From: a virus
Length of the DNA: 64,000 nt
Reading direction: 5' to 3' (one strand)
Virus record (IMG/VR): IMGVR_UViG_3300027741_000030
Coordinates: 32,001-96,000 of that record
Below are positions 1,212 through 31,562 of the stretch, piece after piece. Both the position numbers and the translations under genes were made by a program. The notes under the pieces are model-generated. The model saw only the letters and a list, made by a program, of their open reading frames with translations. It had not been told where the DNA came from and ran no database searches. Each line of letters opens with the position of its first letter. Positions within the stretch are counted from its first letter, which is position 1.

Positions 1212-1286
1212 GGGGATATAGCTTAATCTGGTTAAAGCACTTGTCTTATATACAATAGATTCTGGGTTCAAATCCCAGTATCCCTA
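1212..1286 (+). tRNA. tRNA-Ile, anticodon UAU
   Basis: Cloverleaf: acceptor GGGGATA/TATCCCT, D stem GCTT/AAGC, anticodon arm CTTGT-CTTATAT-ACAAT (TAT at 1247-1249), T arm CTGGG-TTCAAAT-CCCAG, discriminator A; CCA not fully encoded. Confidence 0.9.
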
Positions 1287-1300
1287 CAATGGAGTAGAAT

Positions 1301-1736: not shown

Positions 1737-1996
1737 ATAAGGACGAATCGGACAAACTAGCGAAATATTTAGCCGATGTAAGATATAGAGAAAATAATTA
1801 TTTTGAAGCTAACAATTTGATGGCTAGGTCTTCGCTAGAATGGGTCATAGAAGTCCTACAAGGGCGTTTAGCCAAATGTTTGAATGCAGAGTCAGGTATA
1901 TGTGACATATGGTACATAGAAAGCCATTCTGAATGTTTATTGTTAATGGATCTATTGTACCAATTTAGTCAAGATGAGAAATATAATGTTAAATAG
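1721..1996 (+). CDS. Hypothetical protein (Cys/His cluster)
   Basis: ORF track 1685..1996; likelier start MDNKVNK at 1721; C..C..H..C pattern. Confidence 0.55.
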   Translation: MDNKVNKDESDKLAKYLADVRYRENNYFEANNLMARSSLEWVIEVLQGRLAKCLNAESGICDIWYIESHSECLLLMDLLYQFSQDEKYNVK

Positions 1997-2077
1997 GTTC
2001 TTCTATCGCCGCCGCACTTCAATTTTTTCACTTTCGCACTATTTGTCCAATATATACATGAATGGTAGAATTTAATA

Positions 2078-3574
2078 ATGAGTAAACCAAATATTGTTAT
2101 TGTAGGTGGCGGCACTGCAGGCTGGCTATCTGCCCTATTTGCTCACAAGAGATATCCAGAAGCCAACGTAACCGTAATAGAAAGCACCGAAATTGGAATC
2201 ATAGGTGCGGGCGAGGGAACAGTTCCAATGCTCCTTACCCTTTTTCAAGACTTAGGTATTAGTTTAAAAGATTTAATTGCAAATACAAAATCTACTATCA
2301 AGAATGGTATAAAGTTTACTAACTGGTCAGAAGATGGTGGAAGCTATTTCCATGGGTTTACTTTTTATCCTGAAACTCTTGAAGATCTTAAAGCTATTGA
2401 TTTTGAAGATAAAGATTTTCCAAACTCAAGGCTATTTGCTTATGGCAAAAAAATAAATGATAAAGACTTTTGTTTTTTTACAATGATATCTGATCAAAAC
2501 AAAATTCCATATACAGAAAAAGAAGGTAGCTACAAAAAGCATGGATCCCATGCCTTACATTTTGACGCAAGAGTGTTGGCTAAATTTCTAAAAGAAAAAA
2601 GCTTAGAAAGAGGAATCATTCATATTGATTCTAAAGTTGTTGATTCAGAAATATCAGAAAATAGCGTAGTATCAGTTACCCTAGAAGATACAACAACTAT
2701 AAATACCGATTTTGTAGTAGATGCCACAGGATTTGCAAGGTACTTTATTGGAAATTCTTTGGGTGGAAAGTGGATAAGTTATTCAGACAATTTACCAGCA
2801 GATTCCGCACAAGCATTCTTTTTAAATATTGAAAACAAAGAAGAAATAGAGCCATATACAGAATCTACCGCAAGAGATTACGGTTGGGTTTGGAAAATTC
2901 CACTTCAGCACAGGTATGGGTGTGGCTACGTATATGATTCAAGGCTGGTATCTAATGAAGATATAAGAAAAGAAATTGTTGAAAAGTATGGAGATGTTGA
3001 ATTTATAAAGCAGTTTAAATTTGAACCTGGAGCTTTTGAAGATATCTGGATTGGCAACTGCATTGCCGTTGGTCTGTCAGCAGGATTTGTAGAGCCACTA
3101 GAAGCTACATCATTGCAACAAACTGCAACAACATTAAACAGAGTGTTTCATGAAGACGTAGAGGCACTAACGCCTGGCAATTACAGAGAGCATATAAATA
3201 AAAAATGCTTTAAGGATTCCGAAGCTATAAAAGATTTTATATACCTACACTATATGACAAATAAGACAAACAATGAGTTTTGGAAAAACTTTACATTAAA
3301 TAATAAAATGCCAGATTCTTTAAAAGAAACGTATAAAAAAATTATTAATATTGATGAAATAAAAATCTATGATCTTTTATGGCCAGAGTACAGCTATTAT
3401 ATTGTTGCTAAAGGCAATGGAATAATGAATGAAAATAATTTATCTAATTTTGCAACAAAATACGAAAAATTTAATCAAGAAATACAAGAAAATTTTGAAG
3501 TAGAAAAGGCTTTGTCTAAAAAATCTATAAAGCATTATGACTTTTTAAAATTAAACGGAGGCTTCAATGAGTAA
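2078..3574 (+). CDS. Flavin-dependent halogenase (tryptophan halogenase/PrnA family)
   Basis: GGGTAGW FAD motif, IGAGEGT, catalytic-Lys context IKNGIKF, WVWKIP (WxWxIP), GFVEPLEATS. Confidence 0.9.
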   Translation: MSKPNIVIVGGGTAGWLSALFAHKRYPEANVTVIESTEIGIIGAGEGTVPMLLTLFQDLGISLKDLIANTKSTIKNGIKFTNWSEDGGSYFHGFTFYPETLEDLKAIDFEDKDFPNSRLFAYGKKINDKDFCFFTMISDQNKIPYTEKEGSYKKHGSHALHFDARVLAKFLKEKSLERGIIHIDSKVVDSEISENSVVSVTLEDTTTINTDFVVDATGFARYFIGNSLGGKWISYSDNLPADSAQAFFLNIENKEEIEPYTESTARDYGWVWKIPLQHRYGCGYVYDSRLVSNEDIRKEIVEKYGDVEFIKQFKFEPGAFEDIWIGNCIAVGLSAGFVEPLEATSLQQTATTLNRVFHEDVEALTPGNYREHINKKCFKDSEAIKDFIYLHYMTNKTNNEFWKNFTLNNKMPDSLKETYKKIINIDEIKIYDLLWPEYSYYIVAKGNGIMNENNLSNFATKYEKFNQEIQENFEVEKALSKKSIKHYDFLKLNGGFNE

Positions 3575-3845: not shown

Positions 3846-3962
3846 TTTGTTATAAAAATAATTTATTTTTTGTTCCATTTTTCCGCCAGGCGTTTCATTT
3901 TTATAATAATTTGTTTGAAAATATGGAGAAAAAAACATTTTTGAAAAATGATCTCTTGGCAT
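3807..3962 (-). CDS. 51-aa hypothetical protein
   Basis: MPRDHFSKMFFSPYFQTNYYKNETPGGKMEQ...; TAATG-coupled to the oxygenase stop; below ORF-track cutoff. Confidence 0.4.
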   Translation of the reverse strand: MPRDHFSKMFFSPYFQTNYYKNETPGGKMEQKINYFYNKLKDKMFKNRRNS

Positions 3963-4807
3963 TAGTGTTCTTTAAACTCCGACATAAATTTTTCAGCAAG
4001 ATCTACGCCTTCTAAACCAGATTGCTGCATCTCTGCTATGCGCTCTGGAGTAAACATAGGGTTTATTTTTAAAGGCTTAATCCAAATATCAATTTCTTCT
4101 TCAGTGCGATTACCAATTTGTTTGTAGTACTCTTCTGTTTTGTAATTATAGAAAGTTCCTGGGTTATCTTCAGCTTTTAAAGAAAAATTAGAAAAAGCAA
4201 ATCTAATACCAGACTCGACTTCTCTAACACCGTGACTGTATGGATCAAATGCACTGTGTATGATTAAATCTCCTCTTTCAGGTTGGTATTCAAAACAACC
4301 TTCAAATTTACCAGTTTCTGATTTTAAATTTCCATCTACATCCACATCGGGATAGTAAATTGCTCCTCCAGTAAAATGCCCAAAATATGCAACAAGACCG
4401 TAATCTATTAGACAGCATGTTGCGTACTTATCATCTTGAGAAAGTCTGTGGCATTGTCCTTTTCCAGGACTATCTGAGTGGCAAAACATTCCGCCATCTC
4501 CAGGTCTAACATTTAATATTGATTGAGATGGATGTATCACATAGTGTGGGTATAATATTTCACTTACAAGCTCCCAAAATTCTAAAAGACGTGTAGGTCT
4601 AGGAGAAACCTTATCTACATACCAGCTTATTAAACTCTTGTCGTATTTATTTTTATCTCTGTCGTCTTTTTCTAAAAGTTCTTTTTCAAGATCAAGCATA
4701 AGATCTTCAGGTATAAAGTTTTTAAACAGAAATATGCCGCTAGGTGTGCCATATGCATCCACGTAACTCGATAATTTTATACAATCTGGTCGGTCATAGA
4801 AATACAT
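3962..4807 (-). CDS. 2OG-Fe(II) oxygenase (prolyl 4-hydroxylase-like)
   Basis: HSD...GGAIYYP...P.RGDLIIH...HGVREVESGIRF; likely start MYFYDRP with GGGGG SD and TGATACAAT promoter. Confidence 0.8.
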   Translation of the reverse strand: MYFYDRPDCIKLSSYVDAYGTPSGIFLFKNFIPEDLMLDLEKELLEKDDRDKNKYDKSLISWYVDKVSPRPTRLLEFWELVSEILYPHYVIHPSQSILNVRPGDGGMFCHSDSPGKGQCHRLSQDDKYATCCLIDYGLVAYFGHFTGGAIYYPDVDVDGNLKSETGKFEGCFEYQPERGDLIIHSAFDPYSHGVREVESGIRFAFSNFSLKAEDNPGTFYNYKTEEYYKQIGNRTEEEIDIWIKPLKINPMFTPERIAEMQQSGLEGVDLAEKFMSEFKEH

Positions 4808-4855
4808 TTTTTTCCCCCATTGCAATATCCTTAATTGTATCACGAAATTAATATT

Positions 4856-4890
4856 AAAAACCCCTAGCTGGAGGCGGATCCAACTAGGGG
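4856..4890 (-). terminator. Intrinsic terminator
   Basis: CCCCTAGTTGGA-TCCGCC-TCCAGCTAGGGG followed by TTTTT on the minus strand. Confidence 0.85.
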
Positions 4891-4917
4891 TATACAGGGA
4901 GCATAACTCAACCTGAA
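4856..4917 (-). ncRNA. Candidate ~60-nt two-hairpin small RNA
   Basis: Own TTGACT-N17-TATACT promoter; hairpin CAGG-TT-GAG-TTATG-CTC-CCTG; then intrinsic terminator; no usable ORF. Confidence 0.55.
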
Positions 4918-4922
4918 TTTAA

Positions 4923-4951
4923 AGTATATTATATCTTTTAGGTAAAGTCAA
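4923..4951 (-). promoter_or_regulatory. Sigma70/SigA-type promoter
   Basis: TTGACT-N17-TATACT on the minus strand. Confidence 0.75.
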
Positions 4952-5220
4952 TTATTTTCTTCAGAAGGTTTGAATGAAGGAACAGGCCCTAATAGATATC
5001 CTTCTTCGTGATACTTAATCATTTTTTCAGTATCTTCATTTCCAACAATTTTATTAGAAATTAAAGAAAGCAAGTCATAAATCCTATGTAGCATTATGTA
5101 TGTAACCATAGGCAGGTTGTCCTCTAAGTCAGAGGACTCATTTTTATTCTGGTCTTCCTGCATCTTGCCAAAAAATTTCTCTACCCATTGCATCAGTTTC
5201 TTTAATTTGAACTGATTCAT
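4948..5220 (-). CDS. Hypothetical protein
   Basis: ORF in minus-strand operon; start uncertain. Confidence 0.6.
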   Translation of the reverse strand: MNQFKLKKLMQWVEKFFGKMQEDQNKNESSDLEDNLPMVTYIMLHRIYDLLSLISNKIVGNEDTEKMIKYHEEGYLLGPVPSFKPSEENN

Positions 5221-5246
5221 TTTCTATTTTGCAAATACAATTTCCA

Positions 5247-5462
5247 TTACACATTTATATTCTCCTCAACACTTTTTACTATTTTATCATATGTTGATTT
5301 TCCAATATTATTTTTATATTCACAGTCTAAACAATATAAATAAATATTTTCTTCTAAATCTTGATTACAAAAAAGAATGGATTGGTCTACTGGGCATAAA
5401 AGCTTTTCAACCAATCCTTCTTCTGACATGGAGATGTAAGTTGATACGTATTGTATCTTCAT
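5247..5462 (-). CDS. Zinc-ribbon-like small protein
   Basis: CPVD...CLDC; AAGGAG SD. Confidence 0.7.
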   Translation of the reverse strand: MKIQYVSTYISMSEEGLVEKLLCPVDQSILFCNQDLEENIYLYCLDCEYKNNIGKSTYDKIVKSVEENINV

Positions 5463-5472
5463 CCCATCTCCT

Positions 5473-6018
5473 TTACTTTGTCGGAAATTTTAAATAAAAT
5501 TCCTTAGCTTTTGGGGTCATACCCTTCCAGCTTGACCAATCATTGCCGCCATTGGTCATATGATACGTTATCTCTGCGTTTGTTACTGGGTTGAATAACT
5601 CTTTGTTACTCTGTAGATCAAATTTCTCAAGTCTTTCAGGACCAAGATTTCCAATCATATTTATCTGAAATAATCCGTAAGAACTATCTCCTGTGTGCTT
5701 ATTCCCGTTATATGCAAGCGGTCTTCCATTAGATTCACGCTTTGCTATTGACCAAGCTTTTTTAAGGCCTGTTCCTTCGAATCCTACAGTTTCAAGTAAT
5801 TGTTTTAACTCTTCATCTGTAAGCATCTCAGACGAACTGTAACTTGCATTACTGAACTTGTCTAAGACTTCTTGCTTTAATTGGGCTTCAGTTTTCACTA
5901 AAGGTTTTACAGTTACAGCGTTTGCAGTATTTCCAAACAAAAATAACATTGTTACTGTTATTATTGTCCAGTCACGAACTAAATCGCTAAACTGTTGTTT
6001 TATATTCTCCATTGGCAT
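5473..6018 (-). CDS. Secreted lysozyme-like lytic transglycosylase
   Basis: N-terminal hydrophobic signal ending TANA; IAKRESNG (catalytic Glu), YGLFQIN, NPVTNA, WSSW; AGGAGG SD and TTGACA...TGCTATTCT promoter. Confidence 0.85.
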   Translation of the reverse strand: MPMENIKQQFSDLVRDWTIITVTMLFLFGNTANAVTVKPLVKTEAQLKQEVLDKFSNASYSSSEMLTDEELKQLLETVGFEGTGLKKAWSIAKRESNGRPLAYNGNKHTGDSSYGLFQINMIGNLGPERLEKFDLQSNKELFNPVTNAEITYHMTNGGNDWSSWKGMTPKAKEFYLKFPTK

Positions 6019-6214
6019 TTCCTCCTATAGAGATAACGAACTCTAAGAATAGCATTGATTATAAAGAACTGTCAAGTTAGTTGACTGAAATACCATCTTA
6101 TATAATGAGATATTAAAAAATATTTTTAACCCCTAGACCACTAAATAAAAGTTTGATACACTTAGAACTTCATAAATAAATTACACCGCAAGGCGGAGAA
6201 AAGGTTGTATATAA

Positions 6215-8149
6215 ATGTCTAAAACTATTGCAAACCCGTACGAAAATTTCATTGCGTTATCCAGATATGCAAGATGGATATCAGAAGATAATCGCCGTGA
6301 GACTTGGGGTGAGACAGTAGATAGATATTTTAGCTTTATGCTAAACCATCTAAAAGAAAATTATAATTATATTCCAGATGAGAAGCTTGTTGCGGAATTA
6401 AAAAACGGTGTATTTGAAAGAAACGTCATGCCATCAATGCGCTCTGTAATGACTTCAGGAGTAGCATTAGAAAGAGATAATGTAGCAGGATACAACTGTG
6501 CTTTCCTACCAGTTGATTCACCACGTTCATTTGATGAGACAATGTATATTCTTATGTGCGGTACAGGTGTAGGATTCTCTGTTGAGTATAAGTATATTAA
6601 TAAACTTCCTGCCGTCCCAGAATCGCTAGAGAAGTCAACTACAGTAATTACAGTAGAAGACTCAAAGCAAGGTTGGGCTAAAGCATACCGTGAGTTGCTA
6701 GCACTACTATGGTCTGGACAGATTCCAGCAATTGATGTTTCTAAGGTAAGACCAGCAGGTGCAAGACTTAAGACAATGGGTGGAAGATCATCAGGTCCAC
6801 AACCACTTATTAATCTATTTGATTTTACAATTGCAAAGTTCAAGAGCGCTACAGGAAGAAACCTAAAGCCAATTGAATGCCACGATATCATGTGCAAGAT
6901 TGGTGAAGTAGTTGTTGTAGGCGGAGTTCGTCGCTCAGCAATGATTTCCCTTTCTAACATTAACGATATTGAGATGGCACAGGCTAAGTCAGGTAACTGG
7001 TGGGAAGCCAATACACAACGTGCTTTGTCTAATAACTCTGTTGCGTACTCACGCAAGCCAGACATGGAGCAATTTATTGCAGAATGGAAATCTTTATATG
7101 ATTCAAAGTCAGGAGAACGAGGCATATACAATGTGGCCGCAGCTCAAGCCCAAGCAGCCAAGTATGGAAGAAGAGATCCAGATATACACTATGGAACTAA
7201 CCCGTGCTCAGAGATTATCCTACGTCCTTATCAGTTTTGTAACCTTTCAGAAGTCGTACTACGTGAGAATGATACAAAGAAAGAAATTGAACGCAAAGTT
7301 GAACTTGCAGCTATCCTTGGAACGTGGCAGTCAACGCTTACAGACTTTAAATATCTTCGCAAGATCTGGAAAGACAATACAGAAGAAGAGCGCCTATTAG
7401 GTGTTTCTTTAACTGGACAATTCGGACACAAGTTTATGTCAGGTAAAGAAGACCTTGTTTCACTAGAAGCTTTCTTGATGACTCTTAGAGAATCAGCAAG
7501 AGCAAAGAATAAAGATGAGGCTGGGAAAATTGGGATTCCTGAGTCTGCCGCTATTACATGCGTAAAGCCATCAGGAACAGTATCTCAATTGGTCGGGGTA
7601 TCTTCAGGAATGCATGCTTGGCATTCTCCATATTACATTCGCACAGTTCGTGGGGCAAAGGGAGATCCAATCTCTACATTTTTGAAGGAAGTCGGAATTC
7701 CAGTAGAAGATGATGTCATGAAGCCAAACGATACATACGTATTCTCATTCCCAATTAAAGCACCACAGGGTGCAATTGTTAGAAATGATCTAACCGCTAT
7801 TGAACACTTAAACATTTGGTTGGTTTATCAACGTGCATGGTGTGAGCATAAGCCATCAATTACAGTTTCTGTAAAGGAAGATGAATGGATGGAAGTTGGT
7901 GCATGGGTATATAAGCATTTCGACGAAGTCTCTGGAATTTCATTTTTACCGCATTCAGATCATACTTATAAGCAGGCTCCTTACCAAGAAGTAACAAAAG
8001 AAGAATATGAGTCGCTTCTTGCAAAGATGCCAGAAAATATTAGATGGGAAGATTTATCTTTCTATGAGACAGAAGATGGAACGTCTACAAATGCCACTCT
8101 TGCATGCAGCTCAGATGGAAATTGTGAGCTTGTAGATATTTCAGCATAG
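6215..8149 (+). CDS. nrdJ: Class II (adenosylcobalamin-dependent) ribonucleotide reductase
   Basis: YNCAF, GTGVGFS, GGVRRSA, TNPCSE, CVKPSGTVS, HKPSIT, C-terminal CSSDGNC; no beta-subunit gene nearby. Confidence 0.93.
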   Translation: MSKTIANPYENFIALSRYARWISEDNRRETWGETVDRYFSFMLNHLKENYNYIPDEKLVAELKNGVFERNVMPSMRSVMTSGVALERDNVAGYNCAFLPVDSPRSFDETMYILMCGTGVGFSVEYKYINKLPAVPESLEKSTTVITVEDSKQGWAKAYRELLALLWSGQIPAIDVSKVRPAGARLKTMGGRSSGPQPLINLFDFTIAKFKSATGRNLKPIECHDIMCKIGEVVVVGGVRRSAMISLSNINDIEMAQAKSGNWWEANTQRALSNNSVAYSRKPDMEQFIAEWKSLYDSKSGERGIYNVAAAQAQAAKYGRRDPDIHYGTNPCSEIILRPYQFCNLSEVVLRENDTKKEIERKVELAAILGTWQSTLTDFKYLRKIWKDNTEEERLLGVSLTGQFGHKFMSGKEDLVSLEAFLMTLRESARAKNKDEAGKIGIPESAAITCVKPSGTVSQLVGVSSGMHAWHSPYYIRTVRGAKGDPISTFLKEVGIPVEDDVMKPNDTYVFSFPIKAPQGAIVRNDLTAIEHLNIWLVYQRAWCEHKPSITVSVKEDEWMEVGAWVYKHFDEVSGISFLPHSDHTYKQAPYQEVTKEEYESLLAKMPENIRWEDLSFYETEDGTSTNATLACSSDGNCELVDISA

Positions 8150-19260: not shown

Positions 19261-22260
19261 ATGTCAACAGTAAGAATTCAAGTAAGAAGAGGAACAGCAG
19301 CACAGTGGACCTCAGTAAATCCAATTTTGGCAGCAGGAGAAATGGGTGTCGAGTCAGACACAAACCTATTTAAATTCGGTAACGGATCATCTACCTGGAC
19401 CGCCCTTGCATATGCAAACAATTCAGATGTAGCGATTGGTGAAATTTCCCAAGACGCAATTAACACTGCACTTACAATGGGTGCAGGACTTTCAAAAACT
19501 TACAATGATGGTGCTAACACAATAACAATTAACGTTGATTCAAACGTAGTAGCACTTAAGTCATATGTAAACGCTCAAGTTTCAGCACTTGCAAATACAC
19601 TTGATACAGACTACATTCCACTAGCAGATCGTGGAGCAAATGGCGGAGTTGCATCATTAGACAGCACTGGAAAAATTCCAGCAGCTCAATTAAATATTAC
19701 AGAAACAATTCAAGACGTAGTTGGCTCAACGTTAGTTTCTGGAAGAGGATCAACTTTTTATTATAGCGATCAAGATAATACAATAACTCTTACAGCAGGT
19801 TTAAGAGGACAAGGTTCAGTTTCCGTAACTAATGCAACAGATAATAATGATTTAATTGTTAAATTAAATCCAGTTGTTGCTGCTGATACAAAATTTACAG
19901 GACCTCTTGTTGAAGTTGGAACAGTAACAGCAACAGATGTTAATGCAACAAATGTTTCAATATCTGGAAACTTAACAGTAAATGGAACAACTACAACTGT
20001 AAATTCAACAAATGTTACAATTGATGACCCAATGATCTACATTGGCGATAACAATCAATCAAATAGCCTAGATCTTGGTGTTGTAGCAGCATTTAATAAT
20101 GGAACATATCAGCACTCAGGTCTTGTTCGTGATGCATCAGATGGAAAATGGAAACTTTTTTCAGGTGTAATAGCAGAACCAACAACAACAGTAGATTTTA
20201 CAACGTATACAAAAGATTCTCTTGAAATTGGAGGATTGCATGCAGACTCAGCAAGAATTGGAAATGTTACTAATGATGAAATTCAACATCTAGACGGAGT
20301 TAGCTCAGCAATTCAAACTCAAATTGATTCAAAGCTTTCTACAACTAGAGCAGAGGCAATATATGCGCCAAAAGAATCACCTTATTTTTCTGGAACAGTA
20401 ACTTTGCCAGAAGGAACAGTTACATCAGCAATGATTGCAAATGGCACAATTGTTAATGCAGATATAAATACTTATGCAGAAATTGATCAATCAAAAATTG
20501 CTAATCTTGTTACAAATCTTGCAGCAAAAGCTCCATCAGCATCTCCTACATTTACAGGCACAGTAGTTCTTCCTGCAAATACATCAATTGGAAATGTTTC
20601 ATCAACAGAAATTGGTTATCTTGATGGAGTAACATCAGGAATTCAACAGCAACTTGCTCCAGTTCAAGGTTTAGTCAATTCAGTAAATACACTTGTAACT
20701 GATTTAAATTCAGCTGAAAATACAATATCTTCACTTGAATCATCTGTTACTTCAATTAATACAACAACAAATAGCCTTCAAACACAAATTAATACAAAAG
20801 CATCAACTGCATCACTTACAGCACATGAGGCAGACACAACAAATATTCATGGCATTGCAGATACAACTGCACTTGCTACAAAAACTTATGCAGATTCAGC
20901 AGTTTCAACTGCAGTTTCTGCACTAACAAAATCATCAGTTGGCCTTGCAAATGTTGATAACACATCAGATGCAAATAAGCCAGTATCTTCAGCAACATCA
21001 ACAGCACTTGCGCTCAAAGCGTCACTTGCCTCACCAACATTTACTGGAACTGTTTCTGGTATTACAAAGTCTATGGTTGGGCTTTCAAATGTAGATAATA
21101 CTGCAGATTCAGCAAAACCTGTTTCAACAGCACAGCAAACAGCACTTGATGCCAAATTAGCGCTTGCTGGAGGAACAATGACAGGAGCACTTACACTTTC
21201 AGGTGCACCTACATCAGATCTTCATGCAGCAACTAAGTCTTACGTAGATGGAATTGCTTCTGGAATTAACTTTCATAAATCAGTTAAAATTGCAACAACA
21301 ACTAACTGGTCAGCAGTATATGCAAATGGAACAAATGGTTATGGAGCAACATTAACAGCATCCGTAAATCAATCAATTAACCCAGCAGATGGAGTAACTC
21401 TTGCTGTTGGTGATAGAATTCTTGTAAAATCACAAACAGATGCAAAGCAAAATGGTATCTATGATATAACTTCTGTGGGAGGTTCTTCTTCCAAGTGGGT
21501 TCTTACTCGTTCAGCAGATTCTGATAACAATCCAAATGGGGAAGTTGCAGGTGGAGATTTTACTTTCGTAACAGAAGGTTCTACAAATGCAAGTATTGGA
21601 TTTATCTTGTCTTCACCATCAGGTGCAGCAACTCTTGGAACAGATAATATTGTTTATACACAGTTTAACGCAGCACAAGCAGTAACTGTAGGTGCTGGTA
21701 TTACTAAGTCTGGTTCAACACTTTCAATTGGAACTGGTGCCATTACATCAGATATGATTGTAGATGGAACAATTGTTGATGCAGATATAAATGCTTCAGC
21801 AGCAATCGCACAATCTAAAATCTCAGGACTTTCAACAAGCCTAGGCTTAAAAGCTAACTTAGCAGATCCTACATTTACTGGAACAGTAACAGTTGATGCA
21901 GCAGGAGTAGCATTTACAGATGGAACTCAGACAAAAGAAGGCGTTCCATCACGGACAACAATTATTTCAAAAACAACAGACTACACTCTTTCAAATCTTT
22001 CAGAACGTGATTCATTAATTGAAATAAATGCAGCAGGAGCTACAACATTAACAGTTCCAGCAGATTCATCAACAAACTATCCAGTAGGAACATCTTTGGA
22101 TATTCTGAGAGTAGGAGCTGGAGCATTAACAGTGTCACCTGCAGCTGGCGTAACATTAAATTACACACCAGGAAACAAGCTTCGTGCACAATGGTCATCT
22201 GCAACTCTTGTAAAGAGAGCAGCAAATACATGGGTACTTCTTGGAGACCTAACAGCTTAA
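19261..22260 (+). CDS. Tail fibre with Mtd N-terminal-like domain (fibre 2)
   Basis: RIQVRRGTAAQW...PILAAGEMGVESDT..FKFGNG; SPTFTGTV and VGL.NVDNT repeats; VGDRILVK.Q...NGIY; ends WVLLGDL. Confidence 0.85.
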   Translation: MSTVRIQVRRGTAAQWTSVNPILAAGEMGVESDTNLFKFGNGSSTWTALAYANNSDVAIGEISQDAINTALTMGAGLSKTYNDGANTITINVDSNVVALKSYVNAQVSALANTLDTDYIPLADRGANGGVASLDSTGKIPAAQLNITETIQDVVGSTLVSGRGSTFYYSDQDNTITLTAGLRGQGSVSVTNATDNNDLIVKLNPVVAADTKFTGPLVEVGTVTATDVNATNVSISGNLTVNGTTTTVNSTNVTIDDPMIYIGDNNQSNSLDLGVVAAFNNGTYQHSGLVRDASDGKWKLFSGVIAEPTTTVDFTTYTKDSLEIGGLHADSARIGNVTNDEIQHLDGVSSAIQTQIDSKLSTTRAEAIYAPKESPYFSGTVTLPEGTVTSAMIANGTIVNADINTYAEIDQSKIANLVTNLAAKAPSASPTFTGTVVLPANTSIGNVSSTEIGYLDGVTSGIQQQLAPVQGLVNSVNTLVTDLNSAENTISSLESSVTSINTTTNSLQTQINTKASTASLTAHEADTTNIHGIADTTALATKTYADSAVSTAVSALTKSSVGLANVDNTSDANKPVSSATSTALALKASLASPTFTGTVSGITKSMVGLSNVDNTADSAKPVSTAQQTALDAKLALAGGTMTGALTLSGAPTSDLHAATKSYVDGIASGINFHKSVKIATTTNWSAVYANGTNGYGATLTASVNQSINPADGVTLAVGDRILVKSQTDAKQNGIYDITSVGGSSSKWVLTRSADSDNNPNGEVAGGDFTFVTEGSTNASIGFILSSPSGAATLGTDNIVYTQFNAAQAVTVGAGITKSGSTLSIGTGAITSDMIVDGTIVDADINASAAIAQSKISGLSTSLGLKANLADPTFTGTVTVDAAGVAFTDGTQTKEGVPSRTTIISKTTDYTLSNLSERDSLIEINAAGATTLTVPADSSTNYPVGTSLDILRVGAGALTVSPAAGVTLNYTPGNKLRAQWSSATLVKRAANTWVLLGDLTA

Positions 22261-22286: not shown

Positions 22287-23084
22287 ATGGCTAATAAGAA
22301 ATTTGGTATTAAATCATCAGGACAGGATAACTTCCTAGCTCCATTTGCACCAACAATAGGAACTGCGACAGATGTTGGTACTAACCGTCCATTTGGTAGC
22401 GGTGCAGTTACAGTAACATTTACACCTGATCCTACATACCCTGCAACATCTTTTACAGCATCTGGTTACTGCAGTGTTCATAACATGACTCACTCAGCAA
22501 CAGGATCATCTTCACCAATAACCATTACTGGTTTTGGTTCAGACATGACAACAACAATTACTGTAACAGCTACAAATCAATATGGAACATCCCCTGCTTC
22601 AAATGCATCTAATACAGTAACAGTTACAACTGTTCCAGCAACTCCTTCGGCCCCATCTGCAACAGCGCAGGTAAACCAAGACTCAGTATCTTGGTCAACA
22701 CCTGCAAATGGAGGAAAAGCAATAACAGGTTATACATTAAGGTCAAGCGATGGCCCAACATATTCAACAGGATCAACTTCTTATACTGTTTCTGAAACTG
22801 CCAATACATCGCAAACATATTATGTAAAAGCTACAAATGCAAACGGAACTTCTCAAGAATCAGCCGCCTCAAATTCGGTTACAACTCTTGCACCGTTCTT
22901 TCCACCTTCATTCTTTGCACCACCAGGATTCTTTGCGCCACCTTCATTCTTCGCACCTCCAGGGTTCTTTGCGCCACCTTCATTCTTCGCACCTCCAGGG
23001 TTCTTCGCACCTCCAGGGTTCTTCGCACCTCCAGGGTTCTTCGCACCTCCAGGGTTCTTCGCACCTCCAGGGTTCTGGGATTAA
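22287..23084 (+). CDS. Two-FN3 virion protein with C-terminal (FFAPP[G/S])9 tail
   Basis: FN3 motifs TVTATN..GTS.AS, W..PANGG..ITGY, YVKATNANGTS; then hexapeptide repeats ending FWD. Confidence 0.85.
   Translation: MANKKFGIKSSGQDNFLAPFAPTIGTATDVGTNRPFGSGAVTVTFTPDPTYPATSFTASGYCSVHNMTHSATGSSSPITITGFGSDMTTTITVTATNQYGTSPASNASNTVTVTTVPATPSAPSATAQVNQDSVSWSTPANGGKAITGYTLRSSDGPTYSTGSTSYTVSETANTSQTYYVKATNANGTSQESAASNSVTTLAPFFPPSFFAPPGFFAPPSFFAPPGFFAPPSFFAPPGFFAPPGFFAPPGFFAPPGFFAPPGFWD
22911..23072 (+). repeat. Nine 18-nt coding tandem repeats
   Basis: Unit TTCTTCGCACCTCCAGGG; last five copies identical. Confidence 0.95.
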
Positions 23085-29756: not shown

Positions 29757-31562
29757 ATGTCATATAAGAATGCGGTCTTAAATGATCATCCAAATTCATT
29801 TTACCTTTTAGACGAAGTAAGATCTGGAACAGTAGGATCATACTCTGGAATTATTTCTCAGTTTGCAACATATCAAGATTTAAAAGATAGCGGTATTACA
29901 TATTCTGCATTAAGCGGATTACCAATTATCGACTATTCAGGAAACATAAATAATGGATATGCAATAAGCACATCAAGCAAAGAACTTATGCCATTAGTGC
30001 CAGGAAGCATAAGAGGCACACAAGTTCTTGAGCAAACAATAGTTGCATTTAGTCCAAAAGGAATAGCAACAAAATATTTTAACGATAATTCTTTTAGCAT
30101 AGAGGCCTGGGCAGTTTTGCCAAGCTATGATGTAGACGCTACAATTGTCGCAGACCCAGACCTGGGAATTGGAATATTTTATGAAAACGGAAACATAGTA
30201 TTTAAAGTAGGAGATATACAGACTAGCTATACCGTATCAAATTCAAGATCAAAATATATTGTTGCATTATTTGAAAACAGATCTATATCCCTTTATATTG
30301 ATGGTGTAATTGTTGATAAGCAACCAACCAACAATTATAAATTTACAAATGAATATATTAATTTTATAAGCAGCACATCAGAGGAACAGCTGGTTATAGA
30401 CTCTGTAGCGTTTTATAAATTTGCCCTTTCTCAATCTCAAATAAACAATCATTATAATGAAGGCATAAAAGAAATAAAGTACTCTCAAATAGTAAATCTT
30501 GATAACGGATATTTGTTTAGCATGAATGTAGAGCCAATTAAACCAAAATTTAAATACTCTTATCCAGAATCAAAATCATGGAGAGAGATTTATGGAGATA
30601 ATGTGTCTATAGCAGATGACGGATCATACCTTTATTTTAAAAAAACTTTAGACTCTGCAACCTCAGAATTTTCTTTTATAGATTCTTTTATTGTTCCAAA
30701 TTATTTAAACTTAACAACATCTCAAATTTATTGGGAATATGATGTTGACGGAATATCAGTAGAAGTCAGCACCAACGGATCTAACTGGCAAGAATGCCAA
30801 AATGGAAACCCATTGCCATATTTTAATAAAAATGAAAATCTGTTTTCAGATTTGCTTTATTTGAGAGTTACAATTTCATCAGCTGATACAACAAAATATT
30901 TGCCAATATTAAAAAGCTTAGAAATTTTGTTCTTTAGTTCAAAAAATTTTTACAGCGATAACTCAGGCTACTATTTATCTTCAGACTATGACTATTCACT
31001 TCCTAAAAAAAATAATAGAATTTTAGCATACGATAAAAATAATGGTTTACGCATGTACAGCGGCCATGGATTTTATTTAAATAATGTGCCCTCAATTAAA
31101 ACAGTTGAAATGATATTTACTCCAAGATATTCAGAAAACGTTCTTGTTTCTGCTACGTCAAAAATATACGAGTGGAACCAGGCTGGAACTATAACAAAGT
31201 CAGGAATTGCCTCAATATATGTAAATGGTATAGATCAAACAAACAGTACAAATATATGGGATTTTATATCTCCAGATTTGCCACATCATGTGGTTATAAC
31301 ATTTTCTTCTCAGGCCACAAATCTTAAATTTAATCAAAATCAATCAGATTCCAAGTCTGGTTTAGGACACATGTATAACAATCTTGCTATATACCCAGAC
31401 GAGCTTGGGGAATATAATACATTAAATCATTATACGCTTTATACAAATAGAATAGTAAATTCAATTAACGACACCTCATTAACAATATCAGAAAGCACAT
31501 CAGGTAACGATTCTACGTCTGTCAGATTGATTTTAATACAGCCAGAAGCCATAAGTATATAA
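29757..31562 (+). CDS. LamG/ConA-like lectin-domain virion protein
   Basis: SY...VL.D.P..FYLLDE; FSIEAW; LYIDG; ALS..QI..HY. Confidence 0.75.
   Translation: MSYKNAVLNDHPNSFYLLDEVRSGTVGSYSGIISQFATYQDLKDSGITYSALSGLPIIDYSGNINNGYAISTSSKELMPLVPGSIRGTQVLEQTIVAFSPKGIATKYFNDNSFSIEAWAVLPSYDVDATIVADPDLGIGIFYENGNIVFKVGDIQTSYTVSNSRSKYIVALFENRSISLYIDGVIVDKQPTNNYKFTNEYINFISSTSEEQLVIDSVAFYKFALSQSQINNHYNEGIKEIKYSQIVNLDNGYLFSMNVEPIKPKFKYSYPESKSWREIYGDNVSIADDGSYLYFKKTLDSATSEFSFIDSFIVPNYLNLTTSQIYWEYDVDGISVEVSTNGSNWQECQNGNPLPYFNKNENLFSDLLYLRVTISSADTTKYLPILKSLEILFFSSKNFYSDNSGYYLSSDYDYSLPKKNNRILAYDKNNGLRMYSGHGFYLNNVPSIKTVEMIFTPRYSENVLVSATSKIYEWNQAGTITKSGIASIYVNGIDQTNSTNIWDFISPDLPHHVVITFSSQATNLKFNQNQSDSKSGLGHMYNNLAIYPDELGEYNTLNHYTLYTNRIVNSINDTSLTISESTSGNDSTSVRLILIQPEAISI

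What the first reader, a model, noticed from the sequence alone, without database searches (positions are those of the whole stretch)
4856..4951. Stand-alone ~60-nt small RNA gene
On the minus strand a near-consensus promoter (TTGACT-N17-TATACT) is followed by a small hairpin and then a 12-bp terminator with a U tract. The downstream oxygenase has its own TGATACAAT promoter beyond the terminator, so the unit appears to make only a short RNA. The terminator carries AUCCGCCUCC, a C-rich anti-SD-like sequence exposed in its loop, as in several Gram-positive sRNAs.
Basis: partly seen in the sequence, partly recalled or inferred. Interest (0 to 1): 0.7.

Follow-up and report, generated by a model that had tools for sequence, protein, structure and literature searches.

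The report
Conserved small RNA gene of actinophages
The flagged spot is a real, self-contained gene for a roughly 60-base non-coding RNA that over a hundred related uncultured phages of Actinobacteria also carry, always with the same 11-base hairpin tip; no RNA catalogue lists it and its job is still unknown.

Summary
On the minus strand, a TTGACT-N17-TATACT promoter (4951-4923) is followed by a small hairpin (4915-4895). A 13-bp hairpin (4891-4860) with a U tract follows.

Comparative data make this more than a chance arrangement:
- The same unit lies behind the homologous 90-aa gene in all 77 informative related viral contigs.
- A pattern scan found many more copies, giving 146 distinct instances.
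- On 100 distinct sequences, 93.5% of pair cells are paired, against 35-49% in slid controls. 25 of 31 pairs show double changes.
- The promoter sits at a fixed distance from the first helix in 93 of 100.
- The hairpin cap GGA-UCCGCC-UCY is invariant.

The window holds the minimal two-hairpin form. Most relatives have three hairpins and a second C-rich loop.

The phage encodes WhiB, and its nearest cultured kin are Streptomyces phages. No Rfam family matches; the NsiR1 hit is sub-threshold. Host genomes lack the RNA.

The following gene is convergent in a third of cases, so this is not a leader.

The function is inferred: most likely a trans-acting RNA that pairs through its C-rich loop, as 6C sRNA does. 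Targets remain unproven.

First readers of this scan noted the same family on at least five other genomes, with no follow-up shown in those notes.

The parts
4946..4951 (-). -35 hexamer TTGACT of the RNA's own promoter; it overlaps the stop codon (4948-4950) of the upstream 90-aa ORF
   Evidence: TTGACT or TTGACA sits at the equivalent place in 76 of the 93 members that have a good promoter.
4923..4928 (-). -10 hexamer TATACT, 17-nt spacer
   Evidence: In relatives the -10 ends 3-8 nt before the first pair of P1 in 89 of 93.
4856..4915 (-). Predicted RNA, about 60 nt, from the inferred start at or next to C4915 to the end of the U tract
   Evidence: The start is inferred from promoter geometry and the end from the terminator. 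The covariance model R1 matches 4855-4919 at 46.9 bits, E 8e-9, and this is the only forward-strand match in the 64-kb window.
4895..4915 (-). P1: outer helix CAGG/CCUG, conserved UU bulge, inner helix GAGU/GCUC, loop UAU. This is the minimal form; 42% of relatives carry a C-rich AUCCCAC loop here.
   Evidence: (helix 1: 9 of 11 pairs with double changes)
4860..4891 (-). P3: 13-bp hairpin that also serves as the intrinsic terminator
   Evidence: helix 3: 96.3% paired, 11 of 15 pairs with double changes. RNAalifold on the unfitted MAFFT alignment predicts the same helix.
4871..4881 (-). Invariant 11-mer GGAUCCGCCUC: closing pairs G-Y, G-C, A-U plus hexaloop UCCGCC (4873-4878)
   Evidence: Identical in 77 of 77 informative protein-anchored loci and in all 100 aligned distinct sequences.
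4856..4860 (-). U tract after P3
   Evidence: A U-rich tail follows P3 in most relatives.
4948..6018 (-). Conserved upstream operon that ends at the RNA: SLT-type transglycosylase (5473-6018), 71-aa four-Cys zinc-ribbon protein (5247-5462), 90-aa helical protein (4948-5220)
   Evidence: Pfam SLT_3 at 1.5e-13. The three genes lie upstream and co-directional in 135-139 of 146 instances. AF2 models.
4834..4842 (-). Extended -10 TGATACAAT, separate promoter of the next gene (ORF 3962-4807)
   Evidence: A TGnTAYAAT motif lies within 60 nt after the RNA in 40 of 99 relatives.
6186..6198 (+). Candidate target only: mini-hairpin CCGC-AAG-GCGG-AG in the nrdJ 5' leader. It contains AGGCGGA, the complement of UCCGCCU.
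   Evidence: GGCGGA in 85 of 98 distinct leaders; -13.3 kcal/mol, rank 6 of 175 start regions. This is weak evidence: see the Against line.

Best explanation
Positions 4951-4856 (minus strand) hold an independently transcribed gene for a structured non-coding RNA of about 60 nt. It belongs to a large, uncatalogued RNA family carried by one lineage of uncultured phages of Actinobacteria.

Shown:
- A conserved sigma-70-type promoter is placed so that transcription starts at the foot of helix P1.
- There are two hairpins here and three in most relatives, with abundant compensatory changes.
- The terminal hairpin carries an invariant cap (G-Y, G-C, A-U pairs closing the hexaloop UCCGCC) and a U-rich tail.
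- There is one copy per genome region, at the 3' end of a conserved transglycosylase / zinc-ribbon / 90-aa operon.

Inferred:
- P3 terminates both the small transcript and the upstream operon.
- The RNA acts in trans. Its C-rich loop (plus the AUCCCAC loop of P1 in the longer forms) pairs with G-rich single-stranded stretches (AGGCGGA-like) in leaders or ribosome-binding regions of phage or host mRNAs. This would need no chaperone, as shown for the actinobacterial 6C sRNA.

I put 'real conserved sRNA gene' at about 0.9. I put the base-pairing mechanism at about 0.4.
For: Anatomy and fold.

Family:
- 77 of 77 informative loci found through the neighbouring 90-aa protein carry the element with the exact 11-mer.
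- 146 distinct instances were collected.

Structure:
- On 100 distinct sequences, 93.5% of cells are paired, against 74.4% in shuffles and 35-49% in slid controls.
- 25 of 31 pairs have double changes, 614 cells in all, with 0 of 500 shuffles reaching any measure.
- Frequent G-U pairs fit RNA read from this strand.
- RNAalifold on the unfitted alignment recovers P3.
- Single-sequence folds give three hairpins in 82 and two in 18 of 100, with mean z -6.5.

Promoter: conserved in position.

Not a leader: the downstream gene is convergent in 47 of 131.

Not protein-coding: the 6-codon AUG frame in the window is absent from relatives.

Host clade: WhiB at 45.2 bits. The nearest cultured phages are Streptomyces phages.

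Mechanism by analogy: the 6C sRNA binds targets through C-rich loops without chaperones (PMC6486639).

Complementary AGGCGGA sites:
- 4-6 ribosome-binding regions of this phage carry one, including a tandem pair.
- The conserved nrdJ leader carries one.
Against:
- No target stands out. Across related loci only about 4% of AGGCGGA sites lie in ribosome-binding position, the same as the control AGGTGGA.
- The nrdJ leader hairpin changes by its own compensatory substitutions (CCGU..ACGG) while the RNA loop stays fixed. Selection there is therefore on the leader's own fold.
- A genome-wide duplex scan was uninformative.
- Only six loop bases are exposed.
- Absolute invariance of 11 nt, including three paired positions, across more than 100 sequences fits recognition by a protein at least as well as pairing with many evolving targets.
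Confidence: 0.5

Rival explanations
1. Protein-binding RNA. The invariant cap GGA-UCCGCC-UCY and the conserved UU bulge of P1 would be recognition sites for a protein. That protein could be a phage protein (for example the co-conserved 71-aa zinc-ribbon or the 90-aa protein of the same operon) or a host factor that the RNA sequesters, guides or mimics a substrate for.
For: - Eleven nucleotides are invariant, including three base-paired positions that could have covaried but never do. The rest of the stem covaries freely.
- The RNA is tightly linked to the zinc-ribbon and 90-aa genes in about 135 of 146 instances.
- The 71-aa protein folds confidently (pLDDT 88.8) as a zinc ribbon, a fold that often binds nucleic acids.
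- No convincing RNA target was found.
Against: - The linkage may be plain synteny within one phage lineage.
- The zinc-ribbon match to solved structures is weak (E 0.04).
- The 90-aa model is of low confidence (pLDDT 70.6).
- No known RNA-binding domain was detected.
Confidence: 0.27
2. Cis-acting control element for the genes that follow. This could be an attenuator, or a promoter-proximal antitermination site of the lambda PR'-6S/Q type or the HK022 put type. On this view the short RNA is only the terminated by-product.
For: A strong promoter followed at once by a terminator and then by genes is the layout of lambda PR'-tR'. Weak sub-threshold Rfam likenesses to attenuator leaders (PyrR, bglG, His leader) appear.
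Against: - The next gene is on the opposite strand in 47 of 131 instances, and its identity varies.
- A separate extended -10 promoter follows the RNA in many members.
- The conserved neighbours lie upstream, not downstream.
- No alternative antiterminator fold or leader peptide is conserved.
- All the attenuator hits are far below their gathering scores.
Confidence: 0.05
3. The hairpin is only the intrinsic terminator of the upstream operon, and the promoter is a chance match in AT-rich DNA. No separate RNA is made.
For: The upstream genes are co-directional (127 of 142) and need a terminator. 54 sites in this genome reach 10 of 12 to the promoter consensus.
Against: - The promoter is conserved at a fixed distance in 93 of 100 divergent members.
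- P1 and P2 covary, although a terminator needs neither.
- The loop sequence is invariant, which termination does not require.
Confidence: 0.04
4. A homolog of the cyanobacterial nitrogen-stress RNA NsiR1 captured by a phage.
For: Rfam RF02399 aligns end to end with the window's RNA at 22.6 bits, local E 0.014-0.027.
Against: - The score is below the gathering score of 39 and would not be significant for the whole window.
- The match rests largely on the C/G-rich terminator.
- The longer family members give no NsiR1 hit at E up to 1.
- The phage is an actinophage.
- There is one copy, not a tandem array.
Confidence: 0.01
5. A DNA-level signal, such as an origin, a packaging site or a site for a DNA-binding protein centred on the GGATCC palindrome, rather than an RNA.
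For: The invariant core contains a perfect 6-bp palindrome, and the hairpin could extrude as a cruciform.
Against: - Many stem positions are kept as G-U pairs (for example 74 of 100 at the third closing pair and 62 of 100 in P1). These are mismatches in DNA and on the other strand.
- The conserved promoter points into the element.
- The invariant 11-mer extends asymmetrically beyond the palindrome.
Confidence: 0.03

Closest known systems
6C sRNA of Actinobacteria (Rfam RF01066; B11 in mycobacteria; PMC6486639)
   Same: A short stand-alone RNA in the actinobacterial world, built of hairpins that display C-rich loops. 6C pairs with G-rich mRNA stretches without Hfq or ProQ, which is the mechanism I consider most likely here.
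   Different: - There is no sequence or profile match.
- This RNA is phage-borne and absent from 185,579 species genomes, apart from two phage-like contigs.
- The loop is UCCGCC inside a fixed 11-nt cap rather than a run of C.
- The window's version has only one C-rich loop.
Type I 3'-UTR-derived sRNAs of enterobacteria (for example DapZ, MicL; from my own knowledge)
   Same: The sRNA promoter lies at or inside the end of the upstream coding sequence; here the -35 overlaps the stop codon. The sRNA shares its terminator with that mRNA.
   Different: Those depend on Hfq and occur in Gram-negative chromosomes. Here the host clade lacks Hfq (as stated in PMC6486639), and the gene is viral.
Phage-encoded regulatory RNAs such as lambda OOP, P1/P7 c4, P4 CI, DicF and AsxR/AgvB (review PMC12197685)
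   Same: Small, promoter-to-terminator units in phage genomes that act on phage or host RNAs.
   Different: - All are from phages of proteobacteria, and none shares sequence or fold with this family.
- That review mentions no actinophage RNA.
- OOP is cis-antisense, whereas this RNA lies between co-directional genes.
NsiR1 (Rfam RF02399)
   Same: About 60 nt, with a small 5' hairpin and then a C/G-rich terminator. The partial motif AUGC.CCCUG is shared by the window's copy.
   Different: - The score is sub-threshold (22.6 against 39 bits).
- The shared motif is not conserved in the family.
- NsiR1 comes from a different host phylum.
- NsiR1 occurs in tandem arrays (from my own knowledge).

Membership tests
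Stand-alone bacterial/phage sRNA gene (generic class) | Own promoter conserved in position | tested here: met
   93 of 100 members have at least 9 of 12 consensus matches, with the -10 ending 3-8 nt before P1. 80 of 100 reach 10 of 12, against 2 of 100 shuffled controls.
Stand-alone bacterial/phage sRNA gene (generic class) | Conserved secondary structure supported by compensatory changes | tested here: met
   25 of 31 pairs have double changes; 93.5% of cells are paired, against 35-49% in slid controls. P3 is also recovered from the unfitted alignment.
Stand-alone bacterial/phage sRNA gene (generic class) | No conserved reading frame | tested here: met
   The only AUG frame in the window is 6 codons long, and its AUG is missing in the other subtypes.
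Stand-alone bacterial/phage sRNA gene (generic class) | Discrete transcript observed | not testable with these tools
   No expression data could be reached.
Intrinsic (Rho-independent) terminator | G+C-rich stem followed directly by a U tract | tested here: met
   A 13-bp stem with 7 G-C pairs, then T5. A U-rich tail follows in most relatives.
NsiR1 (RF02399) | Score at or above the Rfam gathering score | tested here: not met
   22.6 bits against 39. No hit for the longer family members.
NsiR1 (RF02399) | Tandem multi-copy array in heterocystous cyanobacteria | tested here: not met
   One copy in the window. The phage carries WhiB and is related to Streptomyces phages.
6C sRNA (RF01066) | Match to the Rfam covariance model | tested here: not met
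   No 6C hit at E up to 10 around the element or at E up to 1 in eight loci with long variants.
6C sRNA (RF01066) | Two or more hairpins with C-rich loops | tested here: inconclusive
   The P3 loop UCCGCC is always present. A second C-rich loop (AUCCCAC) occurs in 42 of 100 members but not in the window.
6C sRNA (RF01066) | Chromosomal gene of Actinobacteria | tested here: not met
   The pattern scan of 185,579 species genomes gave only two true copies, both on small low-GC, phage-like contigs.
Promoter-proximal antitermination or attenuator elements (lambda PR'-tR'/Q, HK022 put, leader attenuators) | Controlled genes lie directly downstream on the same strand and depend on the element's promoter | tested here: not met
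   The downstream gene is convergent in 47 of 131 instances, and a separate promoter follows the RNA in many members.

The most novel reading that the evidence does not exclude
The invariant 11-nt cap is not an ordinary seed. It would be a mimic of, or a handle for, a universally conserved host component, such as part of the translation apparatus or the target of a host defence nuclease. It resembles the 16S 3' end (GGAUC-A-CCUCC, recalled from my own knowledge) in 9 of 11 positions. On this reading the family would be a new kind of phage take-over or counter-defence RNA, possibly working as a ribonucleoprotein with the co-conserved zinc-ribbon protein.
Probability: 0.12. Interest if true: 0.85.

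Novelty: new member of a known kind. Interest (0 to 1): 0.6.

Why it matters
Almost nothing is known about regulatory RNAs of phages that infect Actinobacteria; a 2025 review of phage-derived sRNAs names none.

This is a compact RNA with a clear promoter and terminator. It has very strong covariation, more than a hundred natural variants and an absolutely fixed 11-base tip. That makes it an unusually clean, testable candidate for RNA-based control in this host clade, where Hfq-type chaperones are absent.

It also fills a gap in RNA catalogues. It gives annotators of viral metagenomes a marker for one widespread phage lineage.

Tried and rejected
- **Rfam.** Only a sub-threshold NsiR1 hit and attenuator-like noise for the window. 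Nothing but tRNAs for eight loci with long variants.
- **Cultured phages.** blastn of the RNA and of the 2.2-kb region against 50,697 phage records gave no match. The covariance model finds nothing in the syntenic region of Streptomyces phages Jay2Jay and LilMartin.
- **Host copy.** The scan of 185,579 species genomes gave 31 hits. Only two are true, and both sit on low-GC, phage-like contigs binned as Saccharibacteria and Bacteroidia. The rest are GC-rich chance hairpins.
- **Target search.**
  - There is no extended complement of the cap in the phage's own genome.
  - AGGCGGA at ribosome-binding sites is not enriched family-wide.
  - The full-length duplexfold scan gave unrealistic duplexes.
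  - A cap-only scan ranks several AGGCGGA start regions and the nrdJ leader high, but none stands alone.
  - The whiB leader pairs weakly, at -9.1 kcal/mol.
- **Leader peptide idea.** The MLPVYP frame is not conserved.
- **Neighbouring proteins.** No Pfam or PHROG function was found. The fold search of the zinc-ribbon protein gave only weak generic matches.
- **Literature.** String and keyword searches found no description of the family.
- I make no claim about habitat beyond what other notes of this scan say.

Full report
**What is there**

Read on the minus strand, the stop codon of a 90-aa ORF (4948-5220) overlaps the -35 hexamer TTGACT (4951-4946). After a 17-nt spacer comes TATACT (4928-4923). 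Seven to eight bases later a small hairpin begins: CAGG, a UU bulge, GAGU, loop UAU, GCUC, CCUG (4915-4895). Three bases on lies a 13-bp hairpin (4891-4860) with hexaloop UCCGCC, followed by T5.

The consensus scan lists both the promoter (10 of 12) and the terminator. The 64-nt stretch folds at -29.9 kcal/mol with z = -5.4. A further TGATACAAT (4842-4834) and a GGGGGA ribosome-binding site precede the ATG at 4807 of the next gene. The physical observation is therefore correct. A transcript from about 4915 to about 4856 would be 60 nt long.

**Caveats on the single sequence**

- The genome has 35.6% G+C. 54 sites in its 115,655 bases reach 10 of 12 to the sigma-70 consensus, so the promoter match by itself is weak evidence.
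- Strong hairpin-plus-U sites are rare, about four in the whole genome.
- The loop that is actually unpaired is UCCGCC.

**The source**

- The window is bases 32,001-96,000 of an IMG/VR virus record of 115,655 bp that CheckV rates complete.
- It encodes a WhiB-family protein at 45.2 bits, above Pfam's cut-off.
- Its 601-aa structural-block protein (29757-31562) and the 90-aa protein find only Streptomyces phages of about 130 kb among 50,697 cultured phage records, at 24-43% identity.
- I therefore treat it as a phage of an actinobacterium.

**Comparative evidence**

I searched viral contigs with the 90-aa protein, not with the RNA. This returned 80 loci with 62-100% protein identity.
- In 77 of them the exact 11-mer GGATCCGCCTC lies within a few hundred bases downstream, on the same strand and inside the same kind of element.
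- Two of the remaining three loci are cut off before the expected place. The third contains Illumina adapter sequence.
- All 77 informative loci therefore have it.

The AT-rich hits all show the same architecture, and the GC-rich ones are chance. In all I collected 146 distinct instances.

**Architecture of the family**

- A promoter, TTGACT/A-N16-18-TAnAAT.
- P1: an outer helix of 4-7 bp, an invariant U plus Y bulge, then an inner helix that starts G-C, A-U. In 42 of 100 members the P1 loop reads AUCCCAC.
- An optional P2, capped by a GNRA or UUCG tetraloop.
- A short A-rich linker.
- P3: a long hairpin whose last three pairs (G-Y, G-C, A-U) and hexaloop UCCGCC never change.
- A U-rich tail.

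The window, with three close relatives, carries the shortest form. It lacks P2 and the C-rich P1 loop.

**Structure statistics**

I built a covariance model (R1, 86 positions, 31 pairs) from a MAFFT alignment of 95 distinct sequences. It finds exactly one forward-strand match per locus and one in the window (4855-4919, 46.9 bits, E 8e-9).

On the resulting alignment of 100 distinct sequences:
- 93.5% of cells form standard pairs, against 74.4% after shuffling partners and 34-49% when partners are slid by one to three columns.
- 25 of 31 pairs show changes on both sides, in 614 cells.
- No shuffle out of 500 reaches any of the five measures.

That alignment is fitted to the model, so I made two independent checks.
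- RNAalifold on the unfitted MAFFT alignment recovers P3, with 9 of 13 pairs compensatory.
- Single-sequence minimum-energy folds give three hairpins in 82 and two in 18 of the 100. They reproduce 76%, 80% and 90% of the model's P1, P2 and P3 pairs. Mean z is -6.5 and every z is below -2.

Many pairs are held as G-U. This fits an RNA read from this strand, not a DNA cruciform.

**Promoter conservation**

- 93 of 100 members have at least 9 of 12 matches. In 89 of those 93 the -10 ends 3-8 nt before the first P1 pair.
- 80 of 100 reach 10 of 12, against 2 of 100 shuffled upstream regions.

The data show the opposite of that.

**Gene context**

- Upstream and co-directional in 135-139 of 146 instances lie an SLT-type transglycosylase (Pfam SLT_3, 1.5e-13), a 71-aa protein and the 90-aa protein.
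- Beyond them, divergently transcribed, lies a class II ribonucleotide reductase (nrdJ).
- Downstream the genes vary, and the next gene is on the opposite strand in 47 of 131 cases. This excludes an obligatory leader, attenuator or antitermination role for the following gene.
- The RNA sits at the 3' end of the conserved operon, and P3 very probably terminates that operon as well.
- With the -35 over the stop codon, the layout is that of an sRNA with its own promoter that shares the terminator of the upstream mRNA.

**What it is not**

- Rfam 15 gives only a sub-threshold NsiR1 alignment for the window (22.6 bits against 39). It would not be significant over 64 kb.
- Eight loci with long variants give nothing but tRNAs.
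- There is no 6C hit.
- blastn against cultured phages gives nothing, and the model finds nothing in the syntenic region of two Streptomyces phages.
- A scan of one genome for each of 185,579 prokaryotic species gave 31 pattern hits. Only two are true family members, both on small contigs of 36-37% G+C inside bins labelled Saccharibacteria and Bacteroidia. They are most simply phage contigs.
- The RNA is therefore phage-specific as far as these collections show.
- Literature searches by sequence string and by keywords found no description. A 2025 review of phage-derived sRNAs mentions no actinophage RNA.

**How it may work**

This part is inference. Actinobacteria lack Hfq and ProQ. Their best-studied sRNA, 6C, binds many mRNAs directly through C-rich hairpin loops (PMC6486639). 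The present family also displays C-rich loops on stable hairpins, so trans-acting pairing with G-rich stretches is the most economical mechanism.

The complement of UCCGCCU is AGGCGGA.
- In this phage it sits 3-5 nt before the start codon of four to six genes, once in tandem behind an 11 of 12 promoter.
- It also lies in a conserved mini-hairpin of the nrdJ leader (window 6186-6198), kept in 85 of 98 distinct leaders. That lead came from another first-reader note.

The support is thin.
- Across related loci AGGCGGA is no more often in ribosome-binding position than the control AGGTGGA, about 4% each.
- The nrdJ hairpin evolves by its own compensatory changes while the RNA loop stays fixed.
- No single start region stands out in a cap-only duplex scan.

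The absolute invariance of 11 nt, three of them paired, fits recognition by a protein equally well. The co-conserved 71-aa protein is a confidently modelled four-Cys zinc ribbon (pLDDT 88.8), with only weak likeness to Rpb9/C11-type ribbons. The 90-aa protein is helical and poorly modelled. I therefore keep a protein-binding or decoy role as the main rival.

**Verdict**

- The family is new to Rfam and to the literature I could search.
- It belongs to a known kind, phage-encoded small RNAs.
- Its mechanism is unproven.

First readers of this scan noted members of the same family on at least five other genomes, and those notes show no follow-up. Follow-up agents have reported similarly described C-rich-loop RNAs in other actinophages, but I could not check whether those belong to this family.

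Noticed in passing
window 6186-6198 (+), leader of nrdJ (6215-8149): A conserved mini-hairpin CCGC-AAG-GCGG-AG lies 17-26 nt before the nrdJ start. It is kept in 85 of 98 distinct leaders of related contigs, with compensatory variants (CCGU..ACGG). It looks like a cis element of its own, downstream of an extended -10 (TGATACACT).
   Followed up: partly
window 5247-5462 (-): This 71-aa protein, conserved next to the RNA, has four invariant or nearly invariant Cys. AF2 models it as helix, three-stranded zinc ribbon, helix (pLDDT 88.8). Foldseek gives only weak likeness to Rpb9/C11 ribbons (E 0.04).
   Followed up: partly
Homologs occur near the RNA in 77 instances, in either orientation.
   Followed up: partly
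window 1212-1287 (+) and 2078-3574 (+): A tRNA-Ile with anticodon TAT, and a tryptophan-halogenase-family gene (Pfam 7e-103), lie just beyond the RNA's neighbourhood.
   Followed up: no
G000 19,648-19,701 (-), outside the window: An 11 of 12 consensus promoter is followed by a short leader with tandem AGGCGGA-AGGCGGA directly before the ATG of a 124-aa gene. It gives one of the three best cap-duplex scores in the genome (-15.3 kcal/mol, second of 175).
   Followed up: partly
G000 22,403-22,560 (-), outside the window: A second promoter-to-terminator unit without an ORF (TGGTATAAT ... C6/G6 hairpin plus a U tract).
   Followed up: no
G000 1993-2166 (+), outside the window: A WhiB-family gene (45.2 bits), a marker of actinobacterial phages.
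   Followed up: yes
G000 ends (about 98 and about 115,633; 115,447-115,631): The same 38-mer occurs at both ends of the record, which suggests an overlap or terminal repeat. 18-nt tandem repeats (GGCTCAACCGCAGGTGGC) lie near the end.
   Followed up: no
L053 (IMGVR_UViG_3300021247_000834), about 190 nt after the 90-aa ORF: The contig contains Illumina adapter sequence twice. It is a chimeric assembly and should not be used for synteny.
   Followed up: yes
L220 7100-7140 and L232 2620-2660: GC-rich bacterial terminator hairpins in a Streptomyces genome and in a deltaproteobacterial MAG (after a tRNA) carry the same cap, CCGGAUCCGCCUCCGG. This is probably chance given the search pattern, but it is noted.
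   Followed up: no
L212 7090-7183 and L226 3690-3781: True copies of the RNA lie on low-GC contigs binned as Saccharibacteria and Bacteroidia MAGs. These are most likely phage contigs placed in the wrong bins.
   Followed up: partly
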